DNA of 16,548 bases from Sandaracinaceae bacterium (GTDB lineage Bacteria > Myxococcota_A > Polyangia > Polyangiales > Sandaracinaceae): positions 1-16,548 of the forward strand of contig JBGAQA010000127.1 of the NCBI GenBank assembly GCA_044220955.1, written 5' to 3'. Below the pieces are notes generated by a model. That model was given only the letters and a program-made list of their open reading frames with translations, had not been told where the DNA came from and made no database searches. The translations under genes and the position numbers were made by a program. This document shows positions 1 to 16,548 of the stretch, piece by piece. Within the stretch, counting starts at the first letter, position 1. Each line of letters starts with the position of its first letter.

Positions 1-106
1 GAGCGAGAGCGAGAGCGAGAGCGAGAGCGAGAGCGAGAGCGAGAGCGAGAGCGAGAGCGAGAGCGAGCTCGAGCTCGAGTCCGAGTCCGAGCTCGAGTCC
101 GACCCC
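1..106. repeat. Hexamer tandem repeat: (GAGAGC)x10 plus partial unit, followed by in-phase variants GAGCTC/GAGTCC/GACCCC; truncated by window start
   Basis: Read directly: GAGAGC units at 5-64, then GAGCTC, GAGCTC, GAGTCC, GAGTCC, GAGCTC, GAGTCC, GACCCC to 106. It ends 3 nt from the carA stop codon. Confidence 0.95.
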
Positions 107-109
107 GCC

Positions 110-1222: not shown

Positions 1223-2514
1223 CGCTGGTAAGTCACCTTTCCGCCCACGAGCGTCAGCGTACATGCGCCGCGCATCGTCGCCCCGAGCCAGGGCGTGTTC
1301 AGCGACTTGCTGGCGATCGTGTCGCGGGCGACCACCCACTCGAGGTCGGGGTCGATCACGGTGACGTCGGCGGCGGCGCCCACGGCCAGCGAGCCACCGG
1401 ACAGGCGTGCCAGACGGGCCGGCGACGACGAGACCGCCTCGACGAGGCGCATCATGCTCAGCTTGTTCTCGCGGACGAGCCCGAGGAGCAGCGGGAGCAT
1501 GGTCTCCAGGCCGATGAGGCCTGGGGAGGCCGCCGCCAGCTCGCAGTCCTTCTCGAGGGGACTGTGCGGCGCGTGATCGGTGGCGATGCAGTCGATCGTG
1601 CCGTCGGCGAGGGCCGCGACCGTCGCCTCGACGTCCTCGGCCTCGCGCAGCGGCGGGTTGACCTTGCACGCGGTCCGGTAGCCGAGCAGCGCGTGATCCG
1701 TGAGCAGGAGGTGGTGCGGCGTCACCTCGGCCGTCACGCGCATCCCGCGCGACTTGGCCTCACGGACCAGCCGCGCGGCGCCCGACGTGGACAGGTGCGC
1801 CACGTGGTAGCGGGCGCCGATCCGCTCGTTGAGCACGAGATCGCGCGCGACGATCACGTCCTCCGCCTCGCGCGGCCAGCCCTTGAGGCCGAGCTTCGTC
1901 GAGATGGCCCCCTCGTGCATCTGCGCGCCGCTCGTGAGCGAGTGGTCCTCGCAGTGCTGCGACACGAGCAGATCGAAGGTGCCCGCGTACTCCAGCGCGC
2001 GCCGCATCACCGCGGTGTTCATCACGCAGACGCCGTCGTCGCTCACGCCGATCGCGCCGGCGGCGCGCATGTCGGCCATCTCGGTGAGCACCTCGCCCTT
2101 GCTGCCGAGCGTGATCGCGCCGAAGGGGTAGAGGCGCGTCCCGCCGACCTCGCGCGCGCGCGCGAGCATGGTCTCCGTGATCGCGCGCGTGTCGTTCACG
2201 GGCCGCGTGTTCGGCATGGGGCACACGGCGGTGTAGCCGCCGCGCGCCGCCGCCCGCAGGCCGGAGGCGATGTCCTCCTTGTACTCCTGCCCCGGCTCGC
2301 GGAAGTGGACGTGCATGTCCACGAAGCCGGGCGTGACGAGCTTGCTCCGGCAGTCGACCCGCGTGACGCGCTCGCCAGCGATCCCTTCGCCAGCGCCCGC
2401 GCCGACTCGCGCGACCACCCCGCGCTCGATCACGACGTCGGCGATCTCGTCGCGCTGCGCCGCGGGATCGATCACCCGGCCCCCCGAGAGCACGAGCGTC
2501 GCGTCGAGAGTCAT
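1219..2514 (-). CDS. pyrC: Dihydroorotase (type I / multifunctional-complex type), 431 aa
   Basis: PGFVDMHVHFREPG, MPNTRP, SDDG, HCED, HVAHLST, KVNPPLR and ATDHAPH; metal ligands appear intact; coupled to carA. Confidence 0.95.
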   Translation of the reverse strand: MTLDATLVLSGGRVIDPAAQRDEIADVVIERGVVARVGAGAGEGIAGERVTRVDCRSKLVTPGFVDMHVHFREPGQEYKEDIASGLRAAARGGYTAVCPMPNTRPVNDTRAITETMLARAREVGGTRLYPFGAITLGSKGEVLTEMADMRAAGAIGVSDDGVCVMNTAVMRRALEYAGTFDLLVSQHCEDHSLTSGAQMHEGAISTKLGLKGWPREAEDVIVARDLVLNERIGARYHVAHLSTSGAARLVREAKSRGMRVTAEVTPHHLLLTDHALLGYRTACKVNPPLREAEDVEATVAALADGTIDCIATDHAPHSPLEKDCELAAASPGLIGLETMLPLLLGLVRENKLSMMRLVEAVSSSPARLARLSGGSLAVGAAADVTVIDPDLEWVVARDTIASKSLNTPWLGATMRGACTLTLVGGKVTYQR

Positions 2515-2523
2515 CGGGCCCGC

Positions 2524-2552
2524 CGTTTACGTGCTCGCGCCGCGGGAGTCAA
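2524..2552 (-). promoter_or_regulatory. Putative sigma70-type promoter of pyrC: TTGACT-N17-TAAACG, 9 nt upstream of ATG
   Basis: -35 TTGACT (2552-2547), 17-nt spacer, imperfect -10 TAAACG (2529-2524). No Shine-Dalgarno before the ATG. Bracketed by inverted repeat CGCCGTT (2521-2527) / AACGGCG (2551-2557). Confidence 0.5.
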
Positions 2553-2617
2553 CGGCGGCCCCCGATCCCGCACGCAGCGCCCTCGGCGCGAGCGGGGAGG
2601 AGGCTCTCGATCTCGGG

Positions 2618-2896
2618 TCAGCCAACGTCTTCGAGCGCCTCGGCCTCGGACTCACCCATCGCCGCGTCGGGAGCGTCGATGACGCCGACCGACGACTGCG
2701 CGGGCGCGCGCCGCGCCGGCACCTTGCCGCTCTTGATCTCCTCGACGCGGACTTTCATCGCCTGGACCTTGCGGCAGAGCGAGGCGAAGTCCTTCGATCG
2801 GATCGCCATGTTCGGCGTCCCGCCGCGAAGCAGCGTCGAGAGGATGAAGTCGATGACCTGGATCTCGCCTTCGGAGAACGAGTTGCTGATGCGCAT
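2618..2896 (-). CDS. Small hypothetical protein, 92 aa (MRISNSFSEGEIQVIDFILSTLLRGG...), helical N-terminal part and acidic tail
   Basis: Protein-like composition with GC3-biased codons. A promoter-like motif lies directly upstream of ATG 2896, which favours this start over 2947. Confidence 0.8.
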   Translation of the reverse strand: MRISNSFSEGEIQVIDFILSTLLRGGTPNMAIRSKDFASLCRKVQAMKVRVEEIKSGKVPARRAPAQSSVGVIDAPDAAMGESEAEALEDVG

Positions 2897-2903
2897 GTCG
2901 GGC

Positions 2904-2932
2904 GATCTAACAGACCATGCGCGGAGTGACAA
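2904..2932 (-). promoter_or_regulatory. Putative promoter TTGTCA-N17-TAGATC with extended -10 TG, 7 nt before ATG 2896 (leaderless-type)
   Basis: -35 at 2932-2927; 17-nt spacer ending TGT; -10 at 2909-2904; no SD. Confidence 0.55.
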
Positions 2933-2939
2933 TGGGCGA

Positions 2940-2958
2940 CGTGACATGTGTGGTCACG
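2940..2958. promoter_or_regulatory. Inverted repeat CGTGAC-N7-GTCACG just upstream of the predicted -35; possible transcription-factor site
   Basis: Seen directly in the divergent intergenic region; function inferred from position only. Confidence 0.35.
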
Positions 2959-3176
2959 CGCCCGTCATCGGTCGGTGAGCTTCGTGGCGGATCTAGCCGA
3001 AAAGATACGAGCAATGGCGATCGAGACTCGCCGAAACCGCCGTGCGCGACACCCCACAAAGGCCGCGCGACGGCGATCGGTGTCGACAGCGGCCGATCGC
3101 GATCGCCCTCGATCGAAACCATGCCATCGACGTTCGCGCGCGGGCGGGCAGAGCGAAGCGGATAGACTCCGCGGCC

Positions 3177-4563
3177 GTGAACCGGCTCGCCCTCGCGGCC
3201 TCGGCGCTCGCCGCGATCTCCACCGCCGCGCTGCTCGCGCTCGCGGCCTCGCACGTGTCCTCGCTGACGTCCCGAGAGCTGGATCGCGCCGGAGCCGTCG
3301 TCCCCCTCGCCCCCGCCGGCCCGACGACGCTGATCGAGCACGACGTGCTGGTCGGCGACGATCTCGCGTACGAGCTCTGCACGTCCGACGCGATGGACGC
3401 GACGCGTTGGGACGGCGCCCTGACGCTCACGCTCGAGGCGGTCGAGGGCGACACGCGCCAGCACCTGCTCGATCAGCGGGTCGACGGGCCGCTCCTCACG
3501 CGTGCCCGGCGCGGGGCGAGCGGGGCGTGCTTCGACTTCTTCGAGGTCGGGCCGCTCGAGGCCGCGGGACACTTCGTCCTCGTCGCGCGAGAGGTCGCGC
3601 CGGCGGTGGCAGGGCTCGGCGTGCGCGCGCGGGTCACGGCCCGGAGGCCGCTCGACGCGGGCGACCGCAACGTCGTGCTCGGGATCTTGCTCGGCGCCAT
3701 CGCCCTGGTGATCGCGCTCGCGCTTCGGCCGCCGGCGGCCGCGGTGCCCGCGATCGCGCGTCCGTGGCGGGCCGGCGCGACGTGGGGCGTGAGCGGCGGC
3801 CTCGCGGTGCTGAGCTGCCTGCTCGTCCATCGCGGTGCGCACCCTGGTGGCGCTGCTCGTGCCGGCGGCGACGCTGGGCAGCGGCGTCGCCCTCTCGCGG
3901 GGTGGGCCGGGGGGCGGCGCCGTGCTCGGCGTCGTCGGCTTCGTCGATCTCAGCACGCTGCTCACCCACGTCCCGATCCCGGGACCGGCCTTCGGGCTCG
4001 TCGCGGGCCTGCTGCTGGCGGCGTCGGAGGTGGGCGTCGCCGCGGGGCTCGCGCGCGCGCTCGAGGCGCGCCCGCCGCTCGTGGTGCTCGCGCTCGAGCG
4101 CCCCTCCCGCGCGAGCGTGGCCTTCGCTGGGTTCCTCCTCGCGCCCATCGTGGGCGTGGTGCTGCGGATCGCCGCGACGCGCGTGCTCGGCCTCGTCCCC
4201 TCGACCGGGGAGGCCCCGATCGAGGCGTACGTCTCGTGGCCGAGCGGCCTGCTCTCGTTCGCCGCGCTCTCGGCCGTCGCGCCCATCGGCGAGGAGGTCT
4301 TCTTCCGCGGCCTCGTGTACGGCGCCATCCGCGGGGAGGGCGGCCGTGCGCGCGAGACGGCGGCGTTCCTCGGCGCTTGGCTGCTCTTCGTCCTCGCGCA
4401 CATCCCCCAGACCTGGGGCAGCTGGGGCGGCCTCGCCGCGGTCGCGATCGCGGGGCTGGGCTTCACGACGCTGCGCGCCACGACCGGCTCCGTGCTGGTC
4501 TCGTCCCTGGCCCACCTCGTCTACAACGGTCTGCTCGCCGCAGCCGCGCTGGCAGCGGCATGA
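3177..4563 (+). pseudogene. Membrane protein with N-terminal extracytoplasmic domain and C-terminal CPBP (CAAX/Abi) intramembrane glutamic endopeptidase domain, interrupted by a +1 frameshift near 3828 (pseudogene or sequencing error)
   Basis: The frame from GTG 3177 reads as signal/TM, soluble domain and TMs up to ...LSCLLV (3827), then degrades into R/G/A-rich nonsense. The +1 frame resumes hydrophobic IAVRTLVALLV at 3829 and has a stop at 3811-3813. The span 3177-4563 is 3n+1. Confidence 0.65.
3835..4563 (+). CDS. CPBP-family intramembrane endopeptidase (downstream part of the frameshifted gene; might be translated separately from GTG 3835)
   Basis: Motifs APIGEEVFFRG (EExxxR), FVLAH (FxxxH) and HLVYN (HxxxN); multiple TM segments. 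Confidence 0.85.
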   Translation: MRTLVALLVPAATLGSGVALSRGGPGGGAVLGVVGFVDLSTLLTHVPIPGPAFGLVAGLLLAASEVGVAAGLARALEARPPLVVLALERPSRASVAFAGFLLAPIVGVVLRIAATRVLGLVPSTGEAPIEAYVSWPSGLLSFAALSAVAPIGEEVFFRGLVYGAIRGEGGRARETAAFLGAWLLFVLAHIPQTWGSWGGLAAVAIAGLGFTTLRATTGSVLVSSLAHLVYNGLLAAAALAAA

Positions 4564-4585
4564 CGACCTGGAGGCGTCGAGCGAG

Positions 4586-4945
4586 ATGATCGGCAGCTGG
4601 CTCGTCGGGCTGCGGCTCGTGAAGCTGCTCGCGGTCGGTGCGCTCTGCGCGGGCACGGTCGGCGCGTTCCTGCCGCGCGCGCTCGAGGATCGCCAGCGCG
4701 CCGCCTACGCGCTCGCGGGGCCGGGCTTCGGGCTCTCGTGGGCGTGCGGGTTCGTGATGGTCTGGGCCCAGCAGCGCTCGCTCCTCTCCGCGTGGCTGCT
4801 CGGCGCGACCGTGACCTCGCTCTTCTCGCTGAACGTGGTGCTCTGGTCCGTCGGCAAGGACGGACGCCGCGGGCCGATCGCCGCGGCGCTCGGGATCGGC
4901 TCGCTCGCGCTCACGCTCGCGCTGATGGTGCTCCGGCCGGAGTGA
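4586..4945 (+). CDS. Small membrane protein of unknown function, 119 aa, about 4 TM
   Basis: MIGSWLVGLRLVKLLAVG...LMVLRPE; GGAGG at 4570-4574; four hydrophobic stretches. Confidence 0.8.
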   Translation: MIGSWLVGLRLVKLLAVGALCAGTVGAFLPRALEDRQRAAYALAGPGFGLSWACGFVMVWAQQRSLLSAWLLGATVTSLFSLNVVLWSVGKDGRRGPIAAALGIGSLALTLALMVLRPE

Positions 4946-4946
4946 G

Positions 4947-4984
4947 GTCGAGAGCGAGAGCGGACGCCGTCGAGAGCGGACGCC
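4947..4984. repeat. Short direct repeat CGAGAGCGGACGCC x2 with GAGAGC units, filling the convergent intergenic gap
   Basis: 14-bp copies at 4955-4968 and 4971-4984; GTCGAGAGCG at 4947 and 4969. Confidence 0.75.
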
Positions 4985-6691
<1,707 letters not shown>

Positions 6692-6740
6692 GCCGATTCT
6701 TCTCCGTGATCTCGGGCCGAAAAGCGTGGCCGAGGACGGG

Positions 6741-6769
6741 ATCGTCGTGGAAAGATCCGTGGACGTCAA
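6741..6769 (-). promoter_or_regulatory. Putative pilB promoter TTGACG-N17-GACGAT
   Basis: -35 at 6769-6764 (5/6 match), 17-nt spacer, weak -10 at 6746-6741 (3/6 match). Confidence 0.4.
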
Positions 6770-6797
6770 TGACGACCGCGCATCCGGAGGGAGGGAG

Positions 6798-7940
6798 TTG
6801 AGCTTCTTCGACGGCGGTCGGCTGCGACGTGCGCGGGCGCTGGAGGCGGCGGGCGACTTCCGCGGCGCGGCGTCCGTCTACGCCGAGCTCTCGATGTTCG
6901 TCGAGGCGAGCAAGTGCCTCGTCCACGAGGGGGAGAAGGCAGGAACGCTCGAGGCGCGGGTCGGCGCGTGGATGGACGCGGCGCGCGTGCTGCCGCAGAC
7001 CGCGGTCGAAGCGCTGCGCGAGGTCGACGTGCGCATCGGGCGCGCGATCCTGGAGCACCTGCGCCCGACCGGGGTGGCGGGGAACGCCGAGAAGCGGCAG
7101 CTGACCGACGCGGCCGAGCGGCTCGAGCGGGCGGAGCAGTGGCGCGACGCCGCCGACGCATGGGAACTGCTCGGTCGGCAAGAGGATCTCGCGCGCTGCC
7201 TCGAGCTCGGCGGCGAGGTCGAGCGGCTCGAGCGCGTGCTGACCGAGCAGAACCGGAGCGACGCGAAGGGCGACCGCATCCGGCGCCTGCTCTCGGAGCA
7301 CGATCTGGCCCTCGCGCTCGGGCAGCGCTCGGCCGCGCGGCAGGCGCTCCACGAGGCGAGCACCCTCGCGCCCGACGATCCGAGCATCCGCGCGTCGCTG
7401 CGGCGCATCGACGAGCGCGCGGTCAAGGGGAGCGTGCTGCGCCTCGCGCTGCCGGACAGGACCCTGCGGGTCGTGGGGAAGCTGCCGGTGGTGCTCGGGC
7501 GCGCGGAGGCGGACGTGGCGCTGCGCGGCAGCTCCGTCTCACGGCGGCACGCCGAGGTGGCGCGCGGGGCGTCCGGCTTCGTGCTCCGTGACCTCGGGAG
7601 CCGCAACGGGACGCTCGTGGCGGGGGTCGTGCTCGCACGGGAGATGCCCATCGCGGGCGAGCTCGAGGTCGGGCTCGGGGACGACGTGGCGATCAAGCTG
7701 ACGCCCGACGGCGACGCGCTCGAGATCGAGGTGGTGCGCGGGCTCGACCGCGGCGAGGTGGTGCGCGTGGGGCAGGGCGCCGTCGCGCTGCGCGAGCTGG
7801 GCGTGCGCGTGCGCTTCGAGCCCGAGCGCACGGTCATCGAGGGCCGCGTGACGCTGGGCGAGCGCGTGCTGGCCGAGGTGGAGCTGCTCCGGGGCGACGT
7901 GCTCACCATCGCGGGGCAGCGCGTGGAGGTCGTCGCGTGA
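6798..7940 (+). CDS. FHA-domain protein with N-terminal TPR-like helical repeats, about 380 aa
   Basis: FHA motifs LGR, VSRRHA and DLGSRNGT. Probable TTG start at 6798 after GGAGGGAGG; the track's start at 6561 would overlap pilB. Confidence 0.85.
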   Translation: MSFFDGGRLRRARALEAAGDFRGAASVYAELSMFVEASKCLVHEGEKAGTLEARVGAWMDAARVLPQTAVEALREVDVRIGRAILEHLRPTGVAGNAEKRQLTDAAERLERAEQWRDAADAWELLGRQEDLARCLELGGEVERLERVLTEQNRSDAKGDRIRRLLSEHDLALALGQRSAARQALHEASTLAPDDPSIRASLRRIDERAVKGSVLRLALPDRTLRVVGKLPVVLGRAEADVALRGSSVSRRHAEVARGASGFVLRDLGSRNGTLVAGVVLAREMPIAGELEVGLGDDVAIKLTPDGDALEIEVVRGLDRGEVVRVGQGAVALRELGVRVRFEPERTVIEGRVTLGERVLAEVELLRGDVLTIAGQRVEVVA

Positions 7941-9166
7941 GCGTGTGGTCGCGCCTGCGCGGTGCGCTCGGAGGCGCGCCCGAGCCTGCCGCGCCTCCGC
8001 CGGCGGCCGCGCCGGTGGCTCCCGCGCCTCCGCCGCGCACGGCGCTGGACGAGCTCGCGAGCCTCGCATCGGCGCCGCCGGGCGCGGAGACCGAGGCCAA
8101 GGCGCTCGCGCTCCTCGATCGGGCGGTGGCCGACGGTCAGGAGGCCGACGCGCTCGACGTCGTGCGTCGCCTGCTCGCGCGCGTGCTCCACCCGACGCTC
8201 GCGCTGCGCGTGGCCGAGCGGCTCGACGCCCGCGGCGACGACCTCGGGGCCAGCACCGTCCTCGATCCGCTCCTCGTGGCGAAGGATCCGCGGGTGTCGC
8301 TCGATGCGTGGATGCTCGCTGCCGAGCTCGCCGAGCGTCGCGGCGAGCTCGTGACGGCGCTCGCGCACTACGAGCACGTCGTGGCCCGCGACTTCGACTA
8401 CCCGCGCGCGAGGGAGAGGGCGCTGAGGCTCGCAGACGCGCTCCGCGGCGAGCGCGACGTCGACTCGGGCGCCACGCTGATGGGCGCCTCGAGCGGCCGC
8501 GGCCGCTTCCGCGTCCTGCGCGAGCTCGGGCGGGGCGGCGCGGGCACCGTCTTCCTCGCCGAGGACGTCCCGCTCGCGCGCGAGGTCGCGCTCAAGATCT
8601 ACCAGCGACGCGGCCGCGCCGACCGCCAGCGCTTGCTGCACGAAGCGCGCGTCCCGGCGCTCCTGCCGCACCCGGCGATCGTGCGCGTGCTCGACGTCGA
8701 GGAATCCACCATGGCCATCGCGATGGAGCTCGCGCCGTGTGGATCGCTGCGGGGCGAGCTCGCCCGCGGGACGCTGCCCCAGGACCGCATCCGAGCGCTC
8801 ACCGGGCGGATCGCGGCCGCCCTCGTCCACGTCCGCGGGGCGGGCTGGGTGCACCGGGACGTGAAGCCCGCCAACGTGCTGCTCTTCGAGGACGACCGCA
8901 TCGTGCTCACGGACTTCGGCATCGCGGCGAAGATCGGCGCGCCCGGTGCGGCGGGCGAGGGATCCATGGGCTTCATGCCGAGGGAGCAGCGGATCGGCGC
9001 CGCGGCCGCGACGAGCATGGACGTGCATGCGCTCGGCAAGACGATGCTCGAGATGCTCGCGCCGCACGGCGAGGCGCTCGAGGAGCTGAGCTCGCTCGCG
9101 CGCGCGGCGACGCGAGACGACCCGCACGCACGGCCGCCGCTCGAGCGCTTCCTGCCCGGCGGATGA
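7937..9166 (+). CDS. Hanks-type Ser/Thr protein kinase with N-terminal TPR-like region, soluble, 409 aa
   Basis: LGRGGAGTV, VALK, HRDVKPAN, DFG and DVHALG; GTGA overlap with the FHA gene. Confidence 0.92.
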   Translation: MSVWSRLRGALGGAPEPAAPPPAAAPVAPAPPPRTALDELASLASAPPGAETEAKALALLDRAVADGQEADALDVVRRLLARVLHPTLALRVAERLDARGDDLGASTVLDPLLVAKDPRVSLDAWMLAAELAERRGELVTALAHYEHVVARDFDYPRARERALRLADALRGERDVDSGATLMGASSGRGRFRVLRELGRGGAGTVFLAEDVPLAREVALKIYQRRGRADRQRLLHEARVPALLPHPAIVRVLDVEESTMAIAMELAPCGSLRGELARGTLPQDRIRALTGRIAAALVHVRGAGWVHRDVKPANVLLFEDDRIVLTDFGIAAKIGAPGAAGEGSMGFMPREQRIGAAAATSMDVHALGKTMLEMLAPHGEALEELSSLARAATRDDPHARPPLERFLPGG

Positions 9167-10218
9167 GCGAGCCCTCGCGCCGCGCTCACGGCATCGACCT
9201 GCTGCGCCTGATCGCCGCGGTGCAGATGATCTCCGGGCACACGGTCGACGCGCTGATCGCCCCCGAGCACCGGAGCGGCGAGCTCTGGGCGCGCTGGACC
9301 CTGATGCGGGGCCTGACCGCGGTCGCGTTCCTCTTCGCTTCCGGCGTCGCGTTCGCCATGGTCGCCGCGCAGAGCCCCGAGCGGCGCCGGTCGCGCGTGA
9401 GGCGGGCGCTGATGCTCGTCGGGATCAGCTACGCGCTGCACCCTCCGGTGGCGCTCTTCTCGCGCGACGCCGCGCTGCGCGAGGCCTCGATCCGGGAATT
9501 CTTCGCGGTGGACGTGCTCGCCTGCATCGGGGTGACGCTGCTCGTGCTCGAGGTGCTCGCCCGCCTCCGGCCGCGGGCGTTCGCGGGCGCGAGCGCCGCG
9601 CTGGGGATCGCAGCGCTCGTCGCGGCTCCGGCGACGGCGGGCATCGTGGCGAGCGGGCCCGCGCGGCCGCTGCTCGACTACGTCACCAGGACCGGTGGTT
9701 CGCTCTTCCCGCTGCTCCCGTACTCGGGCTTCGCGCTGCTCGGGGCGGCCATCGGGGCCGCCGCGCTGCCACGCGAGCCTGGACCGCGCGCCGTGCGGGT
9801 GCTCGTCGCCGCGACGCTCGGGTTCGGGGGGATCGCCGCCGCCTGGAATGCGCTCGCGCCCGCGCCGACGCCCGCGCTCTACTACGCGCACCCAGCGGCC
9901 TCGTTCGGTCGGATCGCCGCCGTGTGCGCCCTCGCGCTCGTGCTCACCCTCGCCACGGCCCGCGTTCGTGCACTACCGCGGTGGATGACGACGCTGGCCG
10001 GCGAGACGCTCTTCCTCTACGTGTCGCACCTGCTCGCGCTCTACGTGGGCGGCGTCGGCCTCGTGCACTTCTTCGGCGCGTCGCTCTCCGTCGCGGGCAG
10101 CGTCGCTGCCGCGCTGGCGCTGATCCTCGCCTGCGCGGTCGCGGCGCTCGGCTGGCACGAGCACGCCGGGCGACTCGGCGTGCCGCGGCCGGCGCGCGGC
10201 CCCCGCCGTCGAGACTGA
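9163..10218 (+). CDS. Polytopic membrane acyltransferase-like protein (DUF1624 / HGSNAT-like, acyltransferase-3 clan), 351 aa
   Basis: N-terminal GIDLLRLIAAVQMISGH, AFLFASG, DVLACIG, SLFPLLPY and TLFLYVSH; about 9-10 hydrophobic segments; ATGA overlap with the kinase. Confidence 0.75.
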   Translation: MSEPSRRAHGIDLLRLIAAVQMISGHTVDALIAPEHRSGELWARWTLMRGLTAVAFLFASGVAFAMVAAQSPERRRSRVRRALMLVGISYALHPPVALFSRDAALREASIREFFAVDVLACIGVTLLVLEVLARLRPRAFAGASAALGIAALVAAPATAGIVASGPARPLLDYVTRTGGSLFPLLPYSGFALLGAAIGAAALPREPGPRAVRVLVAATLGFGGIAAAWNALAPAPTPALYYAHPAASFGRIAAVCALALVLTLATARVRALPRWMTTLAGETLFLYVSHLLALYVGGVGLVHFFGASLSVAGSVAAALALILACAVAALGWHEHAGRLGVPRPARGPRRRD

Positions 10219-10232
10219 ATCGGGGCGGACCT

Positions 10233-10757
10233 TCACTCGACGACGATGAGGCCGCTCATCCCGCGGCCGTCGTCGGAGCCATGCACGCTGCAGAAGAACC
10301 CGTACCGCCCCGGGCTGTCGAACGTGAACGTGCCGCCCGTCGTCGACGCCACGGGAACCGGCGTCGCGGCGGGGGAGCAAGTGGCGCGGTTGAGCGGGTG
10401 GTTTCCCGCGGCAGGCAGCGTGACGCTCTGGCCGGCGTGGATGCGGATGCAGGCGGGCGCGTAGCGGAACGCCGCTGCGCCGCTGATCATCACCACCACC
10501 GCGCTGGCGTCGGCCGTGTGGTCCTCGAGCGTGGTGCAGCCCGCGAAGTCGGCCGCGCATTCCGAGGGGCCGGCGTCGGGCAGCGGGCCGGCGTCCTCCC
10601 GCGCGCCGGCGTCGCGGCCTGCGTCGATGGTGCTCCCGCCCCCGTCGCGGCCCCCGTCGCCAGGGCCGGCCCCGGTGTCGCTCGCGACGGGAGCGCCGTT
10701 GCAGCCGGCCTGGCAGAGACAGAGCAGCAAGAGCGAGCCGGCCACGCGAGCCTGCAT
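10233..10757 (-). CDS. Cupredoxin (plastocyanin/azurin-like) lipoprotein, 174 aa
   Basis: Signal peptide with lipobox-like QAGC; DAG-rich linker; RYAPACIRIHAGQSV, HPL and YGFFCSVH...GMSGLIVVE give the type-1 Cu ligands H, C, H, M; GGAGG SD. Confidence 0.88.
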   Translation of the reverse strand: MQARVAGSLLLLCLCQAGCNGAPVASDTGAGPGDGGRDGGGSTIDAGRDAGAREDAGPLPDAGPSECAADFAGCTTLEDHTADASAVVVMISGAAAFRYAPACIRIHAGQSVTLPAAGNHPLNRATCSPAATPVPVASTTGGTFTFDSPGRYGFFCSVHGSDDGRGMSGLIVVE

Positions 10758-10854: not shown

Positions 10855-10872
10855 GGACTGACACGTCAGTCC
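10855..10872. promoter_or_regulatory. Perfect 18-bp inverted repeat GGACTGAC-AC-GTCAGTCC, putative repressor operator overlapping predicted -35 (CTGACA-N17-TAGATC)
   Basis: 8-2-8 palindrome read directly, 20 nt upstream of GTG 10893; CTGACA at 10858-10863 and TAGATC at 10881-10886. Confidence 0.7.
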
Positions 10873-10892
10873 AGTCGATGTAGATCGCCGCC

Positions 10893-11597
10893 GTGACCGA
10901 GGCTGCGCTCGTGCTCTCTCCGAACGCCACCGCGGCGTTCTTTCGGCTGGAAGGCGCCATCGCGCCGGTCGCTGCCCTCGAGGCCATCGGCCGGATCGCG
11001 GCGAGCGCGCAGTCGGTCCGCCGTCGGGTCCTCGGCCGGGCGATGGCTCTCGTCGGCGCCGGTCTCTCGCTCCCGACACCCCTGTCCGATCCACGCGCCG
11101 GTGCCCGCCTGGCGTGGTCGACGCTCGAGGGTATGTCGCGCGATCGCGTGGAGGTGCTCGGGTTCGACTTCGCGCGGGACGAGATCCTCCCGAAGGTCCG
11201 GAAAGAAGCGCGGCGCCTGCTCGCGCGCGCCAAGACCGACGGCGCGCGGACGGTGCTCGTGAGCGACGGCCTCGACGTCGTCGCCGCCGAGGTGGCCCGC
11301 GCCCTCGGGATCGACGAGGTCATCGCCAACGCTCTCGAGTACGACGGGGAGCTCGCCACGGGCGAGCGCGTCGTACCGGTGGTCGGGCCCGAGCTCGATC
11401 CTGCGCGTCTCGCGTCGCTCGCGCGCGCCTGGGGCGTCGACCTCGCTCGCTCGGTCGCCTACGGATCGTGCGAGGGCGACACGATGTTGCTCTCGCAGGT
11501 GGGACGCCCCTGTGCGATCTGCCCCGAGCGCGGCCTGGCCCGCGTCGCGCGGGACCTCGGCTGGCCGATCGTCCTGCCCGCCGGAGACGGAGCATGA
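10893..11597 (+). CDS. HAD-IB (SerB-like) family protein with degenerate catalytic motifs, 234 aa
   Basis: AAFFRLEG at the motif-I position, TVLVS, LGIDEVIANALEYDGELATG, VDLARSVAYG...D.MLLSQVGRP and ARDLGWPIV, typical of the HAD-IB fold. Confidence 0.85.
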   Translation: MTEAALVLSPNATAAFFRLEGAIAPVAALEAIGRIAASAQSVRRRVLGRAMALVGAGLSLPTPLSDPRAGARLAWSTLEGMSRDRVEVLGFDFARDEILPKVRKEARRLLARAKTDGARTVLVSDGLDVVAAEVARALGIDEVIANALEYDGELATGERVVPVVGPELDPARLASLARAWGVDLARSVAYGSCEGDTMLLSQVGRPCAICPERGLARVARDLGWPIVLPAGDGA

Positions 11598-13249
11598 GCG
11601 CGGGCGTGCGCGAGAGCCTCGCGGGCAAGCGCCTGCTCGTCACGGGCGTCACCGGGTTCCTCGGGAAGGTCCTGGTGGCGTTCCTGCTCCACGAGCTGCC
11701 GGAGCTCGGGCGGATCACCGTGCTCGCGCGCGGCCGTCGAGGTCAGTCGCCGGCCGAGCGCGTGAGAAGGATCGCCGAGCGCTCGCCCGCGTGGCGGCCG
11801 CTGCGGGCGCGCCATGGCCACGCGCTCGGTGACATGCTCGCGGAGCGCCTCGAGGTCGTCTCCGGCGACGCGCGCGAGGAGCTGCTCGGCATCACGCCCG
11901 GGGCGCTCGAGATGCTCGCGCCGCGGATCGACGTCGTCCTGCACTGCGCGGGGCTCACGGACTTCGTGCCCGACCCGGTCGACGCCGTCGCGGTGAACGT
12001 CCGCGGTGCGCTGCGCGCGGCCGACGTCGCGGCGCGCACGGCAGGGCGTCGACTGCTGCACGTCTCGACGTGCTTCGTGGCTGGCAAGGTCGACGGTCCG
12101 GTGGAGGAGCGCCTCGCGCCCGGCCGCTCGCCGAACGGCACACGCTTCGATGCCGCGAGCGAGCTGCTGGCGATGGACTCGATGATCGAGGCTTCCCGCT
12201 CGCGTCATGCCGACGCTGCCGCGGCGCGTCGCGAGCGAATCGAGATCGGGCAGCAGCGCGCCAACGCGCTCGGCTGGCCGAACCTGTACACGTACGGCAA
12301 GTCGCTGGCCGAGCACCTGCTCGCGGCGCGAGGCGACGTCACCGCGCTCGTGGTCCGGCCCTCCATCGTCGAGTGCGCGCGCGCCTTCCCCTTCGCGGGC
12401 TGGAACGAGGGCGTGAACACGTCGGCGCCGCTCGTCTGGCTCACCGGCACGCTGCACCGCTCGCTGCCTTTCAGCGGCGAGCACGTGCTCGACGTCGTGC
12501 CGGTCGACTCGGTCGCGCGGGGGCTGACCCTCTCGCTGGCCGAGCTCGTGCGGGGCCGCGTCCGGCACGCCGACGTCGTGCAGCTCGCGTCGGGCGACCA
12601 CAACCCCTTCACGCTGCGGCGCTGTGTCGATCTCACGTCGCTCGCGCGCCGCCGCCAGTACCAACGCTCGGACGACCTCTTCGAGCGCCTCGTGCTCGCG
12701 CACATGGACAGCGTCGCCACGGGGCGCGCGCCCGAGACCGATCCCCTTGTCCCTGCGGCGCGGGCCGCGACCAAGGCCGCGCGCGACCTCCTGGTCGCCT
12801 TCGATCCGGAGGCCCACCTCCCGGGCCCGATCCGCGAGCGCTTCGGGAGCAAGCTCGCGCGCTGGGCGCAGACGGCGGGCAAGGAGCTCGGCACGGCGTC
12901 GCGCACGCTCGGCCAGGTGGACGAGATGCTGAAGCTGTACAAGCCCTTCGTCTTCGAGCACGACCCGAGGCTCGCGACCGAGCGCGTGCGCGGCTGGACG
13001 GCGCGTCTCGACGACGACGAGCGCGCGTCGTTCGGCTTCGACACCGAGACGCTCGACTGGCGCGACTACTGGATGAACGTGCAGATCCCGGGGCTCGACG
13101 CGTGGTCGCTCCCGGCGCTCCGGGGCGAGCGCGCGCCGGAGGATCCCCCCTTCGACCTCGGGGCGGCCATCGCCGAGGTCGGCGAGCCGCGGACGCGCGT
13201 GCCGAGCGAGCGCCCGAGCGAGCGGTCGATGGAAGAAGGTGCCGAGTGA
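11594..13249 (+). CDS. Fatty acyl-CoA/ACP reductase (male-sterility NAD_binding_4 domain plus C-terminal sterile domain), ElbD FAR-domain-like, 551 aa
   Basis: LLVTGVTGFLGK, HVST, GWPNLYTYGK (YxxxK), VRPSIVE, FPFAGWNEG, LDVVPVD and C-terminal FDTETLDWRDYW...IPGL; ATGA overlap with the HAD gene. Confidence 0.9.
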   Translation: MSAGVRESLAGKRLLVTGVTGFLGKVLVAFLLHELPELGRITVLARGRRGQSPAERVRRIAERSPAWRPLRARHGHALGDMLAERLEVVSGDAREELLGITPGALEMLAPRIDVVLHCAGLTDFVPDPVDAVAVNVRGALRAADVAARTAGRRLLHVSTCFVAGKVDGPVEERLAPGRSPNGTRFDAASELLAMDSMIEASRSRHADAAAARRERIEIGQQRANALGWPNLYTYGKSLAEHLLAARGDVTALVVRPSIVECARAFPFAGWNEGVNTSAPLVWLTGTLHRSLPFSGEHVLDVVPVDSVARGLTLSLAELVRGRVRHADVVQLASGDHNPFTLRRCVDLTSLARRRQYQRSDDLFERLVLAHMDSVATGRAPETDPLVPAARAATKAARDLLVAFDPEAHLPGPIRERFGSKLARWAQTAGKELGTASRTLGQVDEMLKLYKPFVFEHDPRLATERVRGWTARLDDDERASFGFDTETLDWRDYWMNVQIPGLDAWSLPALRGERAPEDPPFDLGAAIAEVGEPRTRVPSERPSERSMEEGAE

Positions 13250-13274
13250 ATCGGCGCGCGGAGGCCGGTCGGCC

Positions 13275-14462
13275 ATGATCTTCGTCACGGGGGGCACCGG
13301 GTACCTGGGAGCCTACGTCCTCGCGCGCCTGCTCGAGACGCACCGGACGCGCGTCCTCTTGCTCGTCCGCGCCAAGGATCGCCGCGAGGCGATCGCCAAG
13401 CTCTGGAGCGGCCTGCAGCTGCACATGGACGAGCGGCGCTTCGAGAAGGTGCTGCCGCTCGTGTCCTTCGTGCGAGGAGATCTGACCGCCCCGGCGCTCG
13501 GCATCGCGAAGGAGGCGCGACGCCGCCTGGCCAACGAGGCCACGAGCGTGATCCACGTCGCCGCGTCCCTGAACCGCAAGAGCGAGAAGGCGTGCCTCAA
13601 CGCCAACCTGCGCGGCACGCTCTCGGTCATCCAGCTCGCGCGGGAGATCGCCGACGGGCGTGGAGGGCTGGCGCGCTTCAGCAACGTCTCGACGGTCGCC
13701 GTCTGCGGGCGGCGCGACCGCGAGGTCGTCCTCGAGGACACCGCCATCGACTGGGAGCGCTCGGACTACGACCCCTACGCGCGCACGAAGAAGTTCGCCG
13801 AGCACATGGCGCGCGAGCTCCTGCCGGGCGTGCGCGTCTTGACCTTTCGCCCCTCGATCGTGATGGGGGACTCGCGCTTCCCCGAGACGTCGCAGTTCGA
13901 GATGGTCCGCGCGACGAGCGTGCTCGCGGACCTGCCGCTCGTGCCGACGCGCGGCGATGCGCGCATCGACATCGTGAACGCCGACTACGTCGGGAGGGCC
14001 ATCGCCGACGTGCACCTCAAGGCGGCGCCCGCGCACGACATCTACCACCTGTCGGGCGGCGTCCGCAGCAAGACGGCGACGGCGATCCGAGACGCCCTGC
14101 TGGCCAGGCATCCGCTCAAGCCCCGGCCGCGCTTCGTCGCGAGCGCGGAGCGGCCCTTCGCGCGCGTCGTCGACCGGATGGCGAGCATCGGCGCGCGCGA
14201 AGGAGCGCGGGGCCAGCTCGCCCTGATCGGCTCCCTCCTGAAGGTCTTCCTGCCCTACATCACCTTCGACACGGTGTTCGACAACACCCGCATCGTGGAC
14301 GAGCTCGGAGAGGCACCGGTGCCGTTCACCGACTACTGCGGAGCGCTCTACGACTGGTCGAAGCGCAACCGCTTCCGCTACCCGTACCGCGCGCTCGACG
14401 AGGCGACGCTCCGCAGGCTGACAGAGAGCGACGAACGAGGGGAGGGCGCGACGTGGGCTTGA
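13275..14462 (+). CDS. Extended SDR / thioester-reductase-like oxidoreductase, 395 aa
   Basis: IFVTGGTGYLG, RGDLT, IHVAAS, NLRGT, VST, YARTK (YxxxK) and RPSIVMGDS; GGAGG at 13260-13264 supports ATG 13275. Confidence 0.9.
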   Translation: MIFVTGGTGYLGAYVLARLLETHRTRVLLLVRAKDRREAIAKLWSGLQLHMDERRFEKVLPLVSFVRGDLTAPALGIAKEARRRLANEATSVIHVAASLNRKSEKACLNANLRGTLSVIQLAREIADGRGGLARFSNVSTVAVCGRRDREVVLEDTAIDWERSDYDPYARTKKFAEHMARELLPGVRVLTFRPSIVMGDSRFPETSQFEMVRATSVLADLPLVPTRGDARIDIVNADYVGRAIADVHLKAAPAHDIYHLSGGVRSKTATAIRDALLARHPLKPRPRFVASAERPFARVVDRMASIGAREGARGQLALIGSLLKVFLPYITFDTVFDNTRIVDELGEAPVPFTDYCGALYDWSKRNRFRYPYRALDEATLRRLTESDERGEGATWA

Positions 14463-15976
14463 TCCGCAGGCTGGGGATCCAGGTCGTCCGCACGGCGCTC
14501 GACGGCGCCAAGCGCGCGCTCGACGCCGACGCGATGCTCGGGACCGCGATGAGCGCCCTGATCGAGGCGCGCGCCGCCGAGCACCGGAGCAGCCCGCAGC
14601 CGCCCTACCGGCCGAGCGATCCGCTGCGCCTGCTCTTCGCGGGGTACGTCGGTTCGCGCAACACGGGCGCGGACGTGCGCGTCGAGGAGATGCTGCGGCA
14701 GTTCCGCCACCTCTTCGGCGACGACCACGTCGATCTCTCGGTGCTCACCATCGATCCAGCGTGGACACGCGGCTACTTCAAGACGGTGCGGCAGATCCAC
14801 GTGCCGCAGGTCTATCCGAAGTTCCTCTACGACGAGGTGGCGCGTCACGACGGCGTCGTCGCGTGCGAAGGCTCCATGTTCAAGAGCAAGTTCGCCAACG
14901 CCCTGACGACGCTGATGGTCGGCTCGATCGGGCTCGCGCTCGCCGAGGAGAAGCTCGCCATCGGGTACGGGGGCGAGGCGGGCGCGATGGACGAGAGCGT
15001 CGAGGCGCTGGTGCGGCGACACGTGAAGGGCGCCCTCGTGATCACCCGTAACCCCGAGTCGACGCAGGTGCTCGAGGGGCTCGGGATCGAGGCCAGGACC
15101 GGGACCGACACCGCGTGGACGTTCGGCGGCGCGCCGCGGGCGCTCGGGGAGAAGCTGCTGACGCGCGCCGGCTGGGACGGGCGGGCGCCGGTCGTCGTGG
15201 TGTGTCCGATCCACCCGTTCTGGTGGCCGGTGCGCGCCGACCCGCTCAAGGCCGCGATGCACGCCGCCACGGGGGCGCACGAGCACAGCCACTTCCGGAG
15301 CGTCTACTTCCACCACGACGGACCGGAGGTGGAGGCCTCGCTCCGCTCGTACCTCACGCGCTTCTCGGGCGCGCTGCGCGACCTCTCCCGCAAGCGCCGC
15401 GTGTTCCCGGTGGTGGTCGGCATGGAGGCGCTCGATCGGCGCGCGTGCGAGCGCTTCTCGGACGCGTACGGCGAGAAGCTGCCGACCTTCGTCTCGGACG
15501 AGCACGACATGTTCGAGCTCGTCGCGATCCTGCGCGCCGCGTCGCTCGTCGCGAGCTCGCGCTACCACGCCATCGTGTGCTCGATGCCCGCGGGCGTGCC
15601 CTCGATCGGCGTGACGATGGACGAGCGCATCCGCAACCTGATGAAGGACCGGGGCCAGCCCGAGCTCGCGCTCGAGTGCGACGACGCCCGCCTCGACGAT
15701 CGGCTCTTCGCGGCGATGGACGCGGCCCTGGCCGAGCCGGAGGCGATGCGCGCGGGGATCGAGGGGTCCGTCACGCGCAACTTGCTCGCCATGGGGCGCA
15801 TGGGCGCGTGGGCCGTCGAGCATGTGCGCGCGCGCCACCCGCGCATCCGCTTCCGGGCCGGTCTCGGCGACGCCACGCGCCCCGAGCTGCACCTGCCGCC
15901 GCTCCCGGAGCCGCAGGCGCGGCTGCTGGAGCGCGCGACCATGAGCGACCTGCGGGCGCGTGGGCCGAGCGCGTGA
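14453..15976 (+). CDS. Polysaccharide pyruvyl transferase family-like (CsaB/WcaK-like, GT-B fold) protein, about 507 aa
   Basis: GYVGSRNTGAD (cf. GYxGxxNxGD), ITRNPES (TxRxxxS), GTDTAW and SSRYHAIVCSMPAGVPSIGV (RxH...GVP); GGAGG at 14441 before GTG 14453; alternative ATG at 14534. Confidence 0.78.
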   Translation: MGLIRRLGIQVVRTALDGAKRALDADAMLGTAMSALIEARAAEHRSSPQPPYRPSDPLRLLFAGYVGSRNTGADVRVEEMLRQFRHLFGDDHVDLSVLTIDPAWTRGYFKTVRQIHVPQVYPKFLYDEVARHDGVVACEGSMFKSKFANALTTLMVGSIGLALAEEKLAIGYGGEAGAMDESVEALVRRHVKGALVITRNPESTQVLEGLGIEARTGTDTAWTFGGAPRALGEKLLTRAGWDGRAPVVVVCPIHPFWWPVRADPLKAAMHAATGAHEHSHFRSVYFHHDGPEVEASLRSYLTRFSGALRDLSRKRRVFPVVVGMEALDRRACERFSDAYGEKLPTFVSDEHDMFELVAILRAASLVASSRYHAIVCSMPAGVPSIGVTMDERIRNLMKDRGQPELALECDDARLDDRLFAAMDAALAEPEAMRAGIEGSVTRNLLAMGRMGAWAVEHVRARHPRIRFRAGLGDATRPELHLPPLPEPQARLLERATMSDLRARGPSA

Positions 15977-16013
15977 GCCGCGCCGTCTCGACGTCGTCGA
16001 CCGGGAGCGCGTG

Positions 16014-16548
16014 ATGAGCGCGTCCTTCGTCGATCGCTTCCTCGCGAACCTCGACACGCACCGGGAGCGCGCGTTCGTCGTCGAGGTCCACTGCAGCCGC
16101 GGGGGCGACCGGCTCGCGCCGACGCGGGGTGCGCTGCTGCGCGCCATGGTCGAGGACGCACGCGAGTCCTTGCGGGCTCGTGGGGTGAAGGCCGGCGACC
16201 GCGTCGTGCTCGTGGCGCCCAACTCCGCGCGCTGGGTGGCGATGGACCTCGCGATCCTCGCCGAGGGGGCCACCGCGGTCCCGCTCTACGCGCGCCAGGC
16301 GCCCGCCGAGGTGTCCCTGATGATCCGGGATGCCGACGTGTCGCTCGTGATCGTGGGCGAACCCGGGCTCGACGCGGCGCTCGCGGAGCAGGGGATCGAG
16401 CGGCGCGCGCTGCTCGACGCGATGTTCGAGGGGCGGCGCCTCGAGCCGAGGCCCGCGGCGCCGATCGCGCCCGATCACGTGGTGACCATCATCTACACGT
16501 CGGGGTCGAGCGGCGAGCCGAAGGGCGTGATGACCACGCGCGCGAACG
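16014..16548 (+). CDS. Long-chain fatty acid-CoA ligase / AMP-binding protein, 5' part only
   Basis: Hand-translated, absent from the ORF track because no stop lies in the window: MSASFVDRFLANLD...GVKAGDRVVLVAPNSARWVAMDLAILAEGATAVPLY...TIIYTSGSSGEPKGVM (AMP-binding signature). Confidence 0.92.
   Translation, partial: MSASFVDRFLANLDTHRERAFVVEVHCSRGGDRLAPTRGALLRAMVEDARESLRARGVKAGDRVVLVAPNSARWVAMDLAILAEGATAVPLYARQAPAEVSLMIRDADVSLVIVGEPGLDAALAEQGIERRALLDAMFEGRRLEPRPAAPIAPDHVVTIIYTSGSSGEPKGVMTTRAN

What the first reader, a model, noticed from the sequence alone, without database searches (positions are those of the whole stretch)
10893..16548. Candidate alternative ether-lipid / fatty-alcohol lipid operon: pseudo-HAD + FAR + second reductase + pyruvyl-transferase-like protein + acyl-CoA ligase
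Seen: five same-strand genes with overlaps or gaps under 40 nt, under one predicted promoter/operator. Known: Myxococcus xanthus makes ether lipids with the elb cluster, where ElbD fuses acyl-CoA synthetase, carrier, acyltransferase and fatty-acyl-reductase domains. As I recall, HAD-like and SDR-like genes lie next to it. Here FAR and ligase are separate genes, and a polysaccharide-pyruvyl-transferase-like gene is embedded, which I do not recall as part of elb. Inference: the ligase activates a fatty acid, FAR reduces it to aldehyde/alcohol, and the GT-B enzyme plus second SDR attach it to a head group or form and reduce the ether linkage. This would be an uncharacterised route to alkyl ether or alkyl-glyco lipids.
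Basis: partly seen in the sequence, partly recalled or inferred. Interest (0 to 1): 0.8.

Follow-up and report, generated by a model that had tools for sequence, protein, structure and literature searches.

The report
Split ether-lipid operon with PEP enzyme
These five genes are the front half of a conserved, repressor-controlled eleven-gene operon that is related to the myxobacterial ether-lipid genes but swaps in a different set of enzymes, and may join a fatty alcohol to a three-carbon unit by chemistry so far known only on sugars; its lipid product has not been identified.

Summary
The five coupled genes are real; the contig end cuts the operon. It continues on contig C70: crotonase, ACP, second ligase, YegS-type kinase, PlsC-type acyltransferase, TetR. 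This order is kept in Myxococcota, Acidobacteriota and Planctomycetota records. The reductase nests among ElbD reductase domains, the pseudo-HAD is a dead ElbB relative, and the second ligase (not the window's, which is dispensable) is sister to ElbD's ligase. In place of ElbC (LarA-like) and ElbE it carries a pyruvyl-transferase-like GT-B protein with an invariant PEP site, a crotonase and a thioester reductase (0 of 29 elb loci have these; 0 of 80 of these loci have ElbC/E). The two cluster types rarely share a genome (2 of 36; 0 of 12). Best reading: an alternative alkyl-ether lipid route in which PEP supplies the three-carbon unit. No lipid data exist for any carrier in papers I could read, the sugar-attachment idea has no support, and the genome also holds two PlsA/Ger-like genes. 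The scan noted this operon before on other DNA; one later check partly overturned an ether-lipid link.

The parts
10856..10871 (.). Palindromic operator GACTGAC-N2-GTCAGTC, most likely bound by the TetR encoded at the end of the operon
   Evidence: 1 match vs 0 in 200 shuffles; present in 19 of 19 loci that show both the first gene and TetR, in 7 more without TetR in the stretch, absent in the other 35 of 61; binding by TetR is inferred
10858..10886 (+). Likely sigma-70-type promoter: CTGACA, 17 nt, TAGATC; the -35 box lies inside the operator
   Evidence: CTGACA-like hexamer followed after 17 nt by TA in 20 of 26 operator-bearing loci; the consensus scan found no promoter; inferred
10893..11597 (+). 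Pseudo-HAD (HAD-IB fold), catalytically dead relative of ElbB; fused to the FAR in Acidobacteriota
   Evidence: PF12710; fold Z 22.4, rmsd 2.5 over 217 to 3fvv; motif I D replaced by R in 55 of 60 homologues, while elb-type HADs keep DxDGT; fusion e.g. L073
11594..13249 (+). Fatty acyl-CoA/ACP reductase of the ElbD reductase type
   Evidence: 33-38% identity over 91-99% of its length to the 120 best longer proteins, nearly all FAR-ligase-ACP-acyltransferase fusions; nests among them, support 98; YxxxK in 62 of 62
13275..14462 (+). Second NAD_binding_4 reductase, thioester-reductase type
   Evidence: best solved match MxaA 4u7w E 1e-21; S139, Y168, K172 in 62 of 62; kept elsewhere in 3 of 4 genomes whose locus lacks it
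14453..15976 (+). Pyruvyl-transferase-like GT-B protein (PVT) with an intact PEP site and an altered acceptor motif
   Evidence: PF04230, TIGR03609 below cut-off; model pLDDT 92.8, GT-B, Pvg1p Z 17.5; S141, R199, R370, H372, R392 invariant in 99 sequences and aligned to WcaK
16014..16548 (+). 5' part of ligase 1 (AMP-binding), accessory; cut by the contig end, continues on contig C70 together with crotonase, ACP, ligase 2, YegS-type kinase, PlsC-type acyltransferase and TetR
   Evidence: PF00501; C30 end and C70 start lie 7 nt apart in two relatives; C70 genes identified

Best explanation
An eleven-gene, TetR-controlled biosynthetic operon, descended from the same reductase, ligase and HAD genes as the elb ether-lipid cluster, that builds an alkyl-ether glycerophospholipid by another ether-forming module. 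Shown: gene content, order, homologies, intact catalytic motifs. Inferred steps: (1) ligase 2 loads a fatty acid on the ACP; (2) the FAR, with the dead HAD as a binding or scaffold partner, reduces it to a fatty alcohol; (3) the PVT transfers the C3 unit of PEP to that alcohol, which has only one hydroxyl, so an enol ether (2-alkoxyacrylate) forms instead of a cyclic ketal; (4) the acid is made a thioester (ligase 1 where present, otherwise ligase 2 or a housekeeping ligase); (5) the crotonase adds water at C3, giving 2-O-alkylglyceryl thioester; (6) the second reductase reduces it to 2-O-alkylglycerol; (7) the YegS-type kinase phosphorylates and the PlsC-type enzyme acylates it, giving an ether phosphatidic acid that enters head-group synthesis. 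I put a fatty-alcohol-derived phospholipid at about 0.85, a PEP-derived C-O-C link made by the PVT at about 0.55, and this exact order at about 0.25-0.3.
For: Module swap: PVT, crotonase and second reductase in 0 of 29 elb-type loci; ElbC and ElbE in 0 of 80 PVT loci. Near exclusion per genome: of 36 PVT-positive among 301 Myxococcota genomes all 36 have the FAR and 2 also show an ElbD-length FAR, while 85 of the 91 PVT-negative FAR genomes have it in a frame of 1400 aa or more; in 301 Acidobacteriota genomes 11 have HAD-FAR plus PVT, 46 an ElbD-length FAR, none both. FAR inside ElbD reductases (AU p 0.017 against a separate ElbD clade); ligase 2 sister to ElbD ligase (92/90). PEP-site residues match those mutated in CsaB and the family motifs and are invariant. 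Crotonase keeps both Glu in 61 of 61; kinase GGDGT in 43 of 43; acyltransferase HxxxxD in 43 of 43; ACP Ser in 50 of 50. Natural fusions tie the PVT to ligase 1 (P0292) and to a FAR C-terminal domain (P0251). A CDP-alcohol phosphatidyltransferase lies next to 18 of the 80 loci. The route uses every core enzyme once.
Against: No lipid, enzyme or expression data for any carrier were found. Characterised family members make ketals on sugar diols, none an enol ether on a lipid. Ligase 1 is absent from 8 of 51 loci with room and from 5 of 5 genomes tested, and groups with general long-chain ligases. PlsC-type enzymes usually acylate a secondary hydroxyl (recalled); here a primary one would be needed. 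ACP and acyltransferase are only same-family, not shown orthologous, to ElbD's (no ACP hit; acyltransferase 38-61 bits). Two PVT genes stand alone, with no FAR found in their genomes. The exclusion counts come from related genomes and only 4 candidates were scored per genome. ElbD's own reductase activity was never shown, and elbD homologues occur in bacteria without ether lipids. An earlier scan note says a later check on cultured ether-lipid makers partly failed.
Confidence: 0.4

Rival explanations
1. Same end product as elb: a 1-O-alkyl glycerophospholipid. The PVT uses its phosphate/carboxylate site for another phosphorylated C3 compound, or acts on the fatty aldehyde, and crotonase plus second reductase finish the ether, standing in for ElbC and ElbE.
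For: Orthology of FAR, ligase 2 and HAD to elb parts and near exclusion with fused ElbD; a YegS-type kinase also flanks 6 of 29 elb-type loci; a PlsC-type enzyme fits a free sn-2 hydroxyl.
Against: All PEP-site residues are kept, which points to PEP itself; a crotonase needs a thioester substrate, which an aldehyde route lacks (established crotonase chemistry).
Confidence: 0.2
2. Glycerol-free lipid: crotonase and the two reductases turn an enoyl or hydroxyacyl thioester into a long-chain 1,3-diol; kinase and acyltransferase make a diol phospholipid, or the PVT caps the diol as an ordinary cyclic pyruvate ketal.
For: Keeps the known ketal chemistry of the family: a 4,6-ketal bridges a 1,3-diol; explains why ligase 1 can be lost; crotonase resembles ordinary enoyl-CoA hydratases.
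Against: The sugar-contacting N-x-G-D motif is shifted to N-x-G-A/S-D across the clade; two reductases are both kept where one would do; does not explain the exclusion with ElbD.
Confidence: 0.15
3. Salvage or breakdown: the operon recycles fatty alcohols or alkylglycerols from prey or sediment (kinase, acyltransferase, ligases, crotonase, dehydrogenases running backwards), induced through TetR.
For: TetR and operator in Myxococcota loci; ligase plus crotonase is a common catabolic pair (recalled).
Against: A dedicated ACP, an ElbD-type ligase and FAR, and a neighbouring CDP-alcohol transferase are biosynthetic marks; no thiolase or acyl-CoA dehydrogenase recurs; TetR is missing in the acidobacterial loci.
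Confidence: 0.1
4. One reading: the GT-B protein attaches the fatty alcohol to a sugar head group, giving an alkyl glycolipid, or pyruvylates such a sugar.
For: GT-B fold; top structural matches are glycosyltransferases such as PimA, Z 21.5; known family members act on lipid-linked sugars.
Against: No glycosyltransferase, nucleotide-sugar enzyme or flippase recurs among the 80 loci; the conserved residues are those of the PEP site; the fold is shared by the whole family and does not show function.
Confidence: 0.07

Closest known systems
Myxococcus xanthus elbA-E ether-lipid operon (ElbD; MIBiG BGC0000871; Lorenzen et al. 2014, seen only as summarised in PMC9131029)
   Same: HAD gene first, ElbD-type reductase, ElbD-type ligase, ACP and AGPAT-family acyltransferase all present; YegS-type kinase also beside some elb-type loci.
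   Different: All four ElbD modules are separate genes; HAD is dead; no LarA-like ElbC, no epimerase-type ElbE; adds PVT, crotonase, thioester reductase, a second ligase and TetR.
Split-elbD clusters of sponge Poribacteria and soil Acidobacteria (bioRxiv 10.64898/2026.06.23.733905, section 14)
   Same: Reductase separated from the ligase; DAG kinase, acyltransferase and CDP-alcohol transferase neighbours are reported.
   Different: There the split is one cut between reductase and A domain; the text has no 'pyruvyl' and names no crotonase in that section. Its figures and supplements were not seen, so overlap with its clade 1 is not excluded.
Ketal-pyruvyltransferases CsaB, WcaK, WbbZ, Pvg1p (PF04230)
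   Same: GT-B fold; R-x-x-x-S, R-x-H, basic residue and Ser of the PEP site kept.
   Different: About 500 aa with extra helices; N-x-G-D becomes N-x-G-A-D; Lys becomes Arg392; lipid-gene rather than glycan-gene context; below the CsaB and WcaK cut-offs.
NRPS/PKS terminal thioester reductases (MxaA R domain)
   Same: Best solved match of the second reductase (E 1e-21), Ser/Thr-Tyr-Lys triad intact.
   Different: Stand-alone protein in a lipid operon; substrate unknown. That MxaA releases a primary alcohol is recalled.
AGPS/FARAT and PlsA/Ger ether-lipid routes
   Same: Also give alkyl ethers; FARAT shares the FAR fold.
   Different: No AGPS or PlsA domain recurs in the operon; a FAR-acyltransferase fusion branches outside the ElbD/split clade.

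Membership tests
elb operon | One protein with FAR, acyl-CoA synthetase, ACP and acyltransferase domains (ElbD) | tested here: not met
   Four separate genes; no long-frame FAR in G000, 87.9% complete, nor in 31 FAR-positive of 32 family genomes
elb operon | Reductase of the ElbD type | tested here: met
   tested against ElbD-architecture proteins, the M. xanthus sequence itself was not in hand
elb operon | Ligase of the ElbD type | tested here: met
   Ligase 2 on C70 is sister to ElbD ligases, 92/90, not starred; ligase 1 rejected, p 1e-6
elb operon | HAD gene elbB with intact DxDGT | tested here: not met
   Orthologue present, 25-30% identity, but R-x-E-G replaces D-x-D-G
elb operon | elbC (LarA-like by Pfam here) and epimerase-type elbE | tested here: not met
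   0 of 80 loci; PF09861 not found in G000, controls rang in 2 of 14
elb operon | ACP and acyltransferase orthologous to ElbD's | tested here: inconclusive
   Same Pfam families; ACP gave no BLAST hit, acyltransferase 38-61 bits
elb operon | Required for alkyl-ether lipid formation | not testable with these tools
   No genetics or lipid data found
Ketal-pyruvyltransferase (PF04230) | GT-B fold | tested here: met
   (Pvg1p 5ax7 Z 17.5, rmsd 3.4, 257 aligned)
Ketal-pyruvyltransferase (PF04230) | PEP-site residues (CsaB S88, R148, R306, H308, K328) | tested here: met
   S141, R199, R370, H372, R392 invariant in 99; R199 82 of 82, R370, H372, R392 80 of 82 in distant representatives; positions matched through WcaK, CsaB itself not aligned
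Ketal-pyruvyltransferase (PF04230) | N-x-G-D acceptor motif | tested here: not met
   N-x-G-A/S-D/E in the clade against N-x-G-D
Ketal-pyruvyltransferase (PF04230) | Glycan-biosynthesis context and sugar-diol acceptor | tested here: not met
   No recurring glycan gene in 80 loci; the acceptor itself is untested
HAD-IB phosphatase | Asp nucleophile, motif III Lys, motif IV Asp pair | tested here: not met
   Fold kept, residues lost
Wax-ester fatty acyl reductase | Closer to plant or Marinobacter-type FARs than to ElbD; WS/DGAT partner | tested here: inconclusive
   164 bits to solved FAR 7eoz against up to 310 bits to ElbD-architecture proteins; no WS/DGAT recurs; bacterial wax-ester FARs were not in the trees

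The most novel reading that the evidence does not exclude
A further route to bacterial ether lipids in which the glycerol backbone does not come from glycerol-3-phosphate or DHAP but is built on the fatty alcohol from PEP: a pyruvyltransferase-family enzyme makes an alkyl enol ether, a crotonase hydrates it and a thioester reductase turns it into 2-O-alkylglycerol. It would be the first non-sugar acceptor for this enzyme family, a source of sn-2 ether bonds in aerobes, and the counterpart of elb in Sandaracinaceae, Nannocystaceae-type myxobacteria and part of the soil Acidobacteriota.
Probability: 0.27. Interest if true: 0.9.

Novelty: new variant of a known kind. Interest (0 to 1): 0.62.

Why it matters
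How the elb system forms the ether bond is unknown (PMC9131029), and the makers and routes of environmental alkyl-ether lipids used as climate proxies are unsettled (PMC11868695, PMC13274423). This operon offers the same front and back end as elb in small separate proteins, with a different middle module, so each step can be assayed alone, and comparing the two modules points at ElbC (LarA-like) and ElbE as the likely ether-forming parts of elb. A cultured species, Sandaracinus amylolyticus, has a named record of the key protein and lacks the elb cluster. Screens that look only for fused ElbD miss these genomes. If the product is not an ether it is still an undescribed lipid made by a widespread operon.

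Tried and rejected
PVT as a remote ElbC homologue: rejected, the gene between HAD and ElbD is LarA-like and gave no BLAST hit. Window ligase as the ElbD-type ligase: rejected. Operator as head of a wider regulon: 5 genome-wide matches at 1 mismatch, within the range of 25 permuted palindromes (0-124), only the window's site is perfect. Operator as a minus-strand terminator (flagged): less likely, since sequence rather than stem is conserved, it is doubled in 4 loci and tracks TetR. Sequence searches of the PVT against solved structures found nothing. CarF family not found in G000, but no control rang, so no conclusion. No RNA holder listed. Complex prediction of FAR with PVT was not available, so binding is open. 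Lipid data for Sandaracinus or Nannocystaceae: none found; the 2011 myxobacterial fatty-acid survey was not held. No cultured Nannocystaceae species name among the best 120 hits of a Nannocystaceae-type PVT, only MAG names. The ESM Atlas only returned PF04230 clusters. The careful FAR tree did not finish; quick trees were used. The Bacillus region fetched for a CsaB comparison carried no annotation and was not used.
Full report
Observation. The window is the whole of contig C30 of a 7.5-Mb draft genome, 87.9% complete; its closest named relatives are Sandaracinaceae MAGs (L013, 72-87% protein identity). Five + strand genes lie at 10893-11597, 11594-13249, 13275-14462, 14453-15976 and 16014 to the contig end, with a 4-nt overlap, 25-nt gap, 10-nt overlap and 37-nt gap. 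Pfam gives HAD, NAD_binding_4 with Sterile, NAD_binding_4, PS_pyruv_trans and AMP-binding. No NCBIfam equivalog cut-off is reached.

The operon is longer. In L013 the ligase is whole and followed by six more genes. All lie on contig C70 of the same genome, minus strand: rest of ligase 1, crotonase, ACP, ligase 2, YegS-type kinase, PlsC-type acyltransferase, TetR. The end of C30 and the start of C70 map 7 nt apart in two relatives. Four of four family genomes I fetched (G646, G642, G647, G626) hold all eleven genes in this order behind the operator.

Conservation. Of 62 loci with room upstream, 58 have FAR, 57 HAD, 56 the second reductase; of 51 with room downstream, 49 have the crotonase, 46 ACP, 45 ligase 2, 44 kinase, 43 ligase 1, 41 acyltransferase, 18 TetR (the 10-kb flank cuts some tails). 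In Acidobacteriota HAD and FAR are fused, and a CDP-alcohol phosphatidyltransferase lies beside 18 loci. Pairwise distances of each gene follow those of the PVT (Spearman 0.74-0.85, 42-61 loci; kin are not independent). The FAR was found in 31 of 32 genomes of the family, 22 of 22 of high quality (one, G648, is unpublished). A named record of the PVT exists for Sandaracinus amylolyticus (AKF06332.1; its cluster representative is 62% identical); I did not read gene order in that named record. Exceptions: two PVT genes stand alone and no FAR was found in their genomes.

Regulation. GACTGACACGTCAGTC (10856-10871) has no match in 200 shuffles. It precedes the first gene in 26 of 61 loci, including all 19 that also show TetR, and in none of the loci with fused HAD-FAR. 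Its left arm is followed after 17 nt by TA in 20 of 26, so it probably covers a -35 box. TetR binding is inferred.

Relation to elb. As summarised in PMC9131029 (passages), elbA-E encode an epimerase-like protein, a HAD, an unknown ElbC, ElbD (FAR, ligase, ACP, acyltransferase) and an epimerase-like ElbE; ElbD's ligase and ACP were shown to work, its reductase and acyltransferase were not. I did not have the M. xanthus sequences, so I used proteins with ElbD's domain order. The window FAR matches the 120 best longer proteins at 33-38% over 91-99% of its length. In trees the split FARs form one group (99) inside ElbD reductases (98), away from a FAR-acyltransferase fusion and the second reductase (quick tree, 79 rows); a separate ElbD clade is rejected at p 0.017 (27 rows, group named after the first tree). 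Ligase 2 is sister to ElbD ligases (92/90); ligase 1 with ElbD is rejected (p 1e-6) and it sits with general ligases. The HAD aligns end to end with elb-type HADs but has R-x-E-G for D-x-D-G (R in 55 of 60) and lacks the later catalytic residues. ACP and acyltransferase are same-family only. In 29 elb-type loci the gene after the HAD is LarA-like (21 of 29), ElbE-type genes occur in 22 and a YegS-type kinase in 6, but PVT, crotonase and second reductase in none; ElbC and ElbE occur in none of the 80 PVT loci. So the two clusters share front and back ends and differ in the middle module.

Distribution. Among 301 Myxococcota genomes 36 have the PVT and 127 the FAR; all 36 are among the 127; 2 of the 36 also show an ElbD-length FAR; 85 of the other 91 have the FAR in a frame of at least 1400 aa (my count from the tables; the fused layout was read in 19 of 20 fetched). 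Among 301 Acidobacteriota genomes 12 have the PVT, 11 of them with HAD-FAR; 46 others have an ElbD-length FAR (one, G353, unpublished); none has both. Only 4 FAR candidates per genome were scored there and kin are not independent; in the family search up to 44 were scored and no ElbD-type second hit appeared. Independently, Table 3 of PMC12224551 (passages) lists S. amylolyticus without the elb cluster. G000 shows no fused ElbD and no LarA-like gene but has two proteins with two BcrAD_BadFG stretches and DUF2229, the PlsA/Ger layout as I recall it, so ether lipids in this host could have another source.

The PVT. The model (pLDDT 92.8) is GT-B; Pvg1p matches at Z 17.5 among many glycosyltransferases that score higher, so fold alone says little. 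PEP binding in CsaB rests on R148, H308, K328, with R306 and S88 predicted (PMC10435577, passages); family motifs are N-x-G-D, R-x-x-x-S/T and H (PMC10629545, passages). Here R199-x-x-x-S203, R370-x-H372, R392 and S141 align with the WcaK motifs (its N-terminal part aligned poorly), are invariant in 99 sequences and nearly so in 82 distant representatives. The sugar-side motif reads N-x-G-A/S-D. The clade is large: 301 clusters at 50% identity with E up to 1e-30. One representative is fused to ligase 1, another carries a FAR C-terminal domain in front (single sequences, the second probably partial).

Other enzymes. The second reductase is closest to the MxaA thioester reductase and is kept elsewhere in 3 of 4 genomes whose locus lacks it. 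Ligase 1 had no orthologue in 5 of 5 genomes tested, one titled a single chromosome: it is accessory. All catalytic motifs of FAR, reductase, crotonase, ACP, kinase, acyltransferase and both ligases are conserved.

Mechanism. Shown: parts, order, homologies, motifs. Inferred: fatty acid to acyl-ACP to fatty alcohol; PEP transfer to the alcohol giving an enol ether, since one hydroxyl cannot close a ketal; thioester formation; hydration at C3; reduction to 2-O-alkylglycerol; phosphorylation and acylation. I noted this route, before looking at earlier scan notes. It uses each core gene once, but no family member is known to make enol ethers (PMC6801904, passages), the loss of ligase 1 needs a stand-in, and a PlsC-type enzyme would act on a primary hydroxyl. 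Rivals are an elb-like 1-O-alkyl product, a diol or pyruvate-ketal lipid, salvage, and a glycolipid.

Novelty. No paper held all five terms pyruvyl transferase, enoyl-CoA hydratase, acyl carrier, diacylglycerol kinase, reductase; in a four-term search none of the 20 listed papers, ranked by number of terms, held 'pyruvyl'; elbD searches listed 12 and 4 papers, and the three searched for 'pyruvyl' had none. The 2026 sponge preprint (passages and section 14) reports split elbD with kinase and CDP-alcohol neighbours; its figures and closed supplements could overlap with this cluster. Also seen as passages: PMC11868695, PMC13012113, PMC13445942 (supplements not opened; they may hold strain lipid data), PMC9304148, PMC13274423, PMC9426513; term counts only: PMC5010890. 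Lorenzen 2014 and Sinninghe Damste 2018 were not seen. The scan has noted this operon in six other windows; one note says a later check on cultured ether-lipid makers made part of it fall, but the text is cut and I could not test named strains. I therefore make no claim about brGDGT producers.

Verdict. Real, conserved, regulated and undescribed in what I could search; a variant of the elb kind rather than a member, with a new middle module whose chemistry is directly testable. Interest 0.62.

Noticed in passing
L094:12455-14098, L104:11496-13148, L113:6937-8529: The gene between the HAD and ElbD-architecture genes (ElbC by position, 'unknown function' in the review) is a lactate-racemase-like protein (PF09861, E about 1e-36), present in 21 of 29 elb-type loci; a lead for elb's ether-forming step.
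   Followed up: partly
G000:C144:16548-21221 and C264:29473-32886 (L177, L178): Two large proteins with two BcrAD_BadFG stretches and DUF2229, the PlsA/Ger-like layout, in the window's own genome.
   Followed up: partly
L016:9920-11449, L041 near 9000-10400: PVT genes standing alone, with no FAR found in their genomes (G615, G617); may be assembly gaps or a second use of the enzyme.
   Followed up: partly
L149:5362-11608 (G179): A second, reduced copy of the cluster (HAD, FAR, PVT, crotonase, ACP, ligase 2) without second reductase and ligase 1, in a genome that has two PVT genes.
   Followed up: no
L061, L064, L068, L085 after the crotonase: A FabH-like gene is inserted in four acidobacterial loci.
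   Followed up: no
L070:5294-19000, L090:11450-18300: The operon is broken up by multi-kilobase insertions of unrelated genes, yet order is kept.
   Followed up: no
L157:741-6807 (G519): An elb-type locus (HAD, LarA-like, ElbE-type, kinase) with a stand-alone FAR and no ligase next to it.
   Followed up: no
P0292, P0251: Natural fusions PVT-ligase 1 (967 aa) and FAR C-terminal domain-PVT (640 aa, probably partial).
   Followed up: partly
window 6561-10218 (+): Three coupled genes: TPR/FHA protein, Ser/Thr kinase with an N-terminal repeat region, and an HGSNAT/acyltransferase-3 membrane protein; not conserved beside the operon.
   Followed up: no
window 10233-10757 (-): Small cupredoxin-like probable lipoprotein, divergent from the operon promoter.
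   Followed up: no
window 1-6769 (-): Housekeeping genes read from the translations by recalled motifs, not scanned: carbamoyl-phosphate synthase small subunit, dihydroorotase, PilB-type ATPase; a GA-type simple repeat at the contig start.
   Followed up: no
G000:C274:26195: A one-mismatch copy of the operator arms in apparently non-coding DNA; within chance range genome-wide.
   Followed up: no
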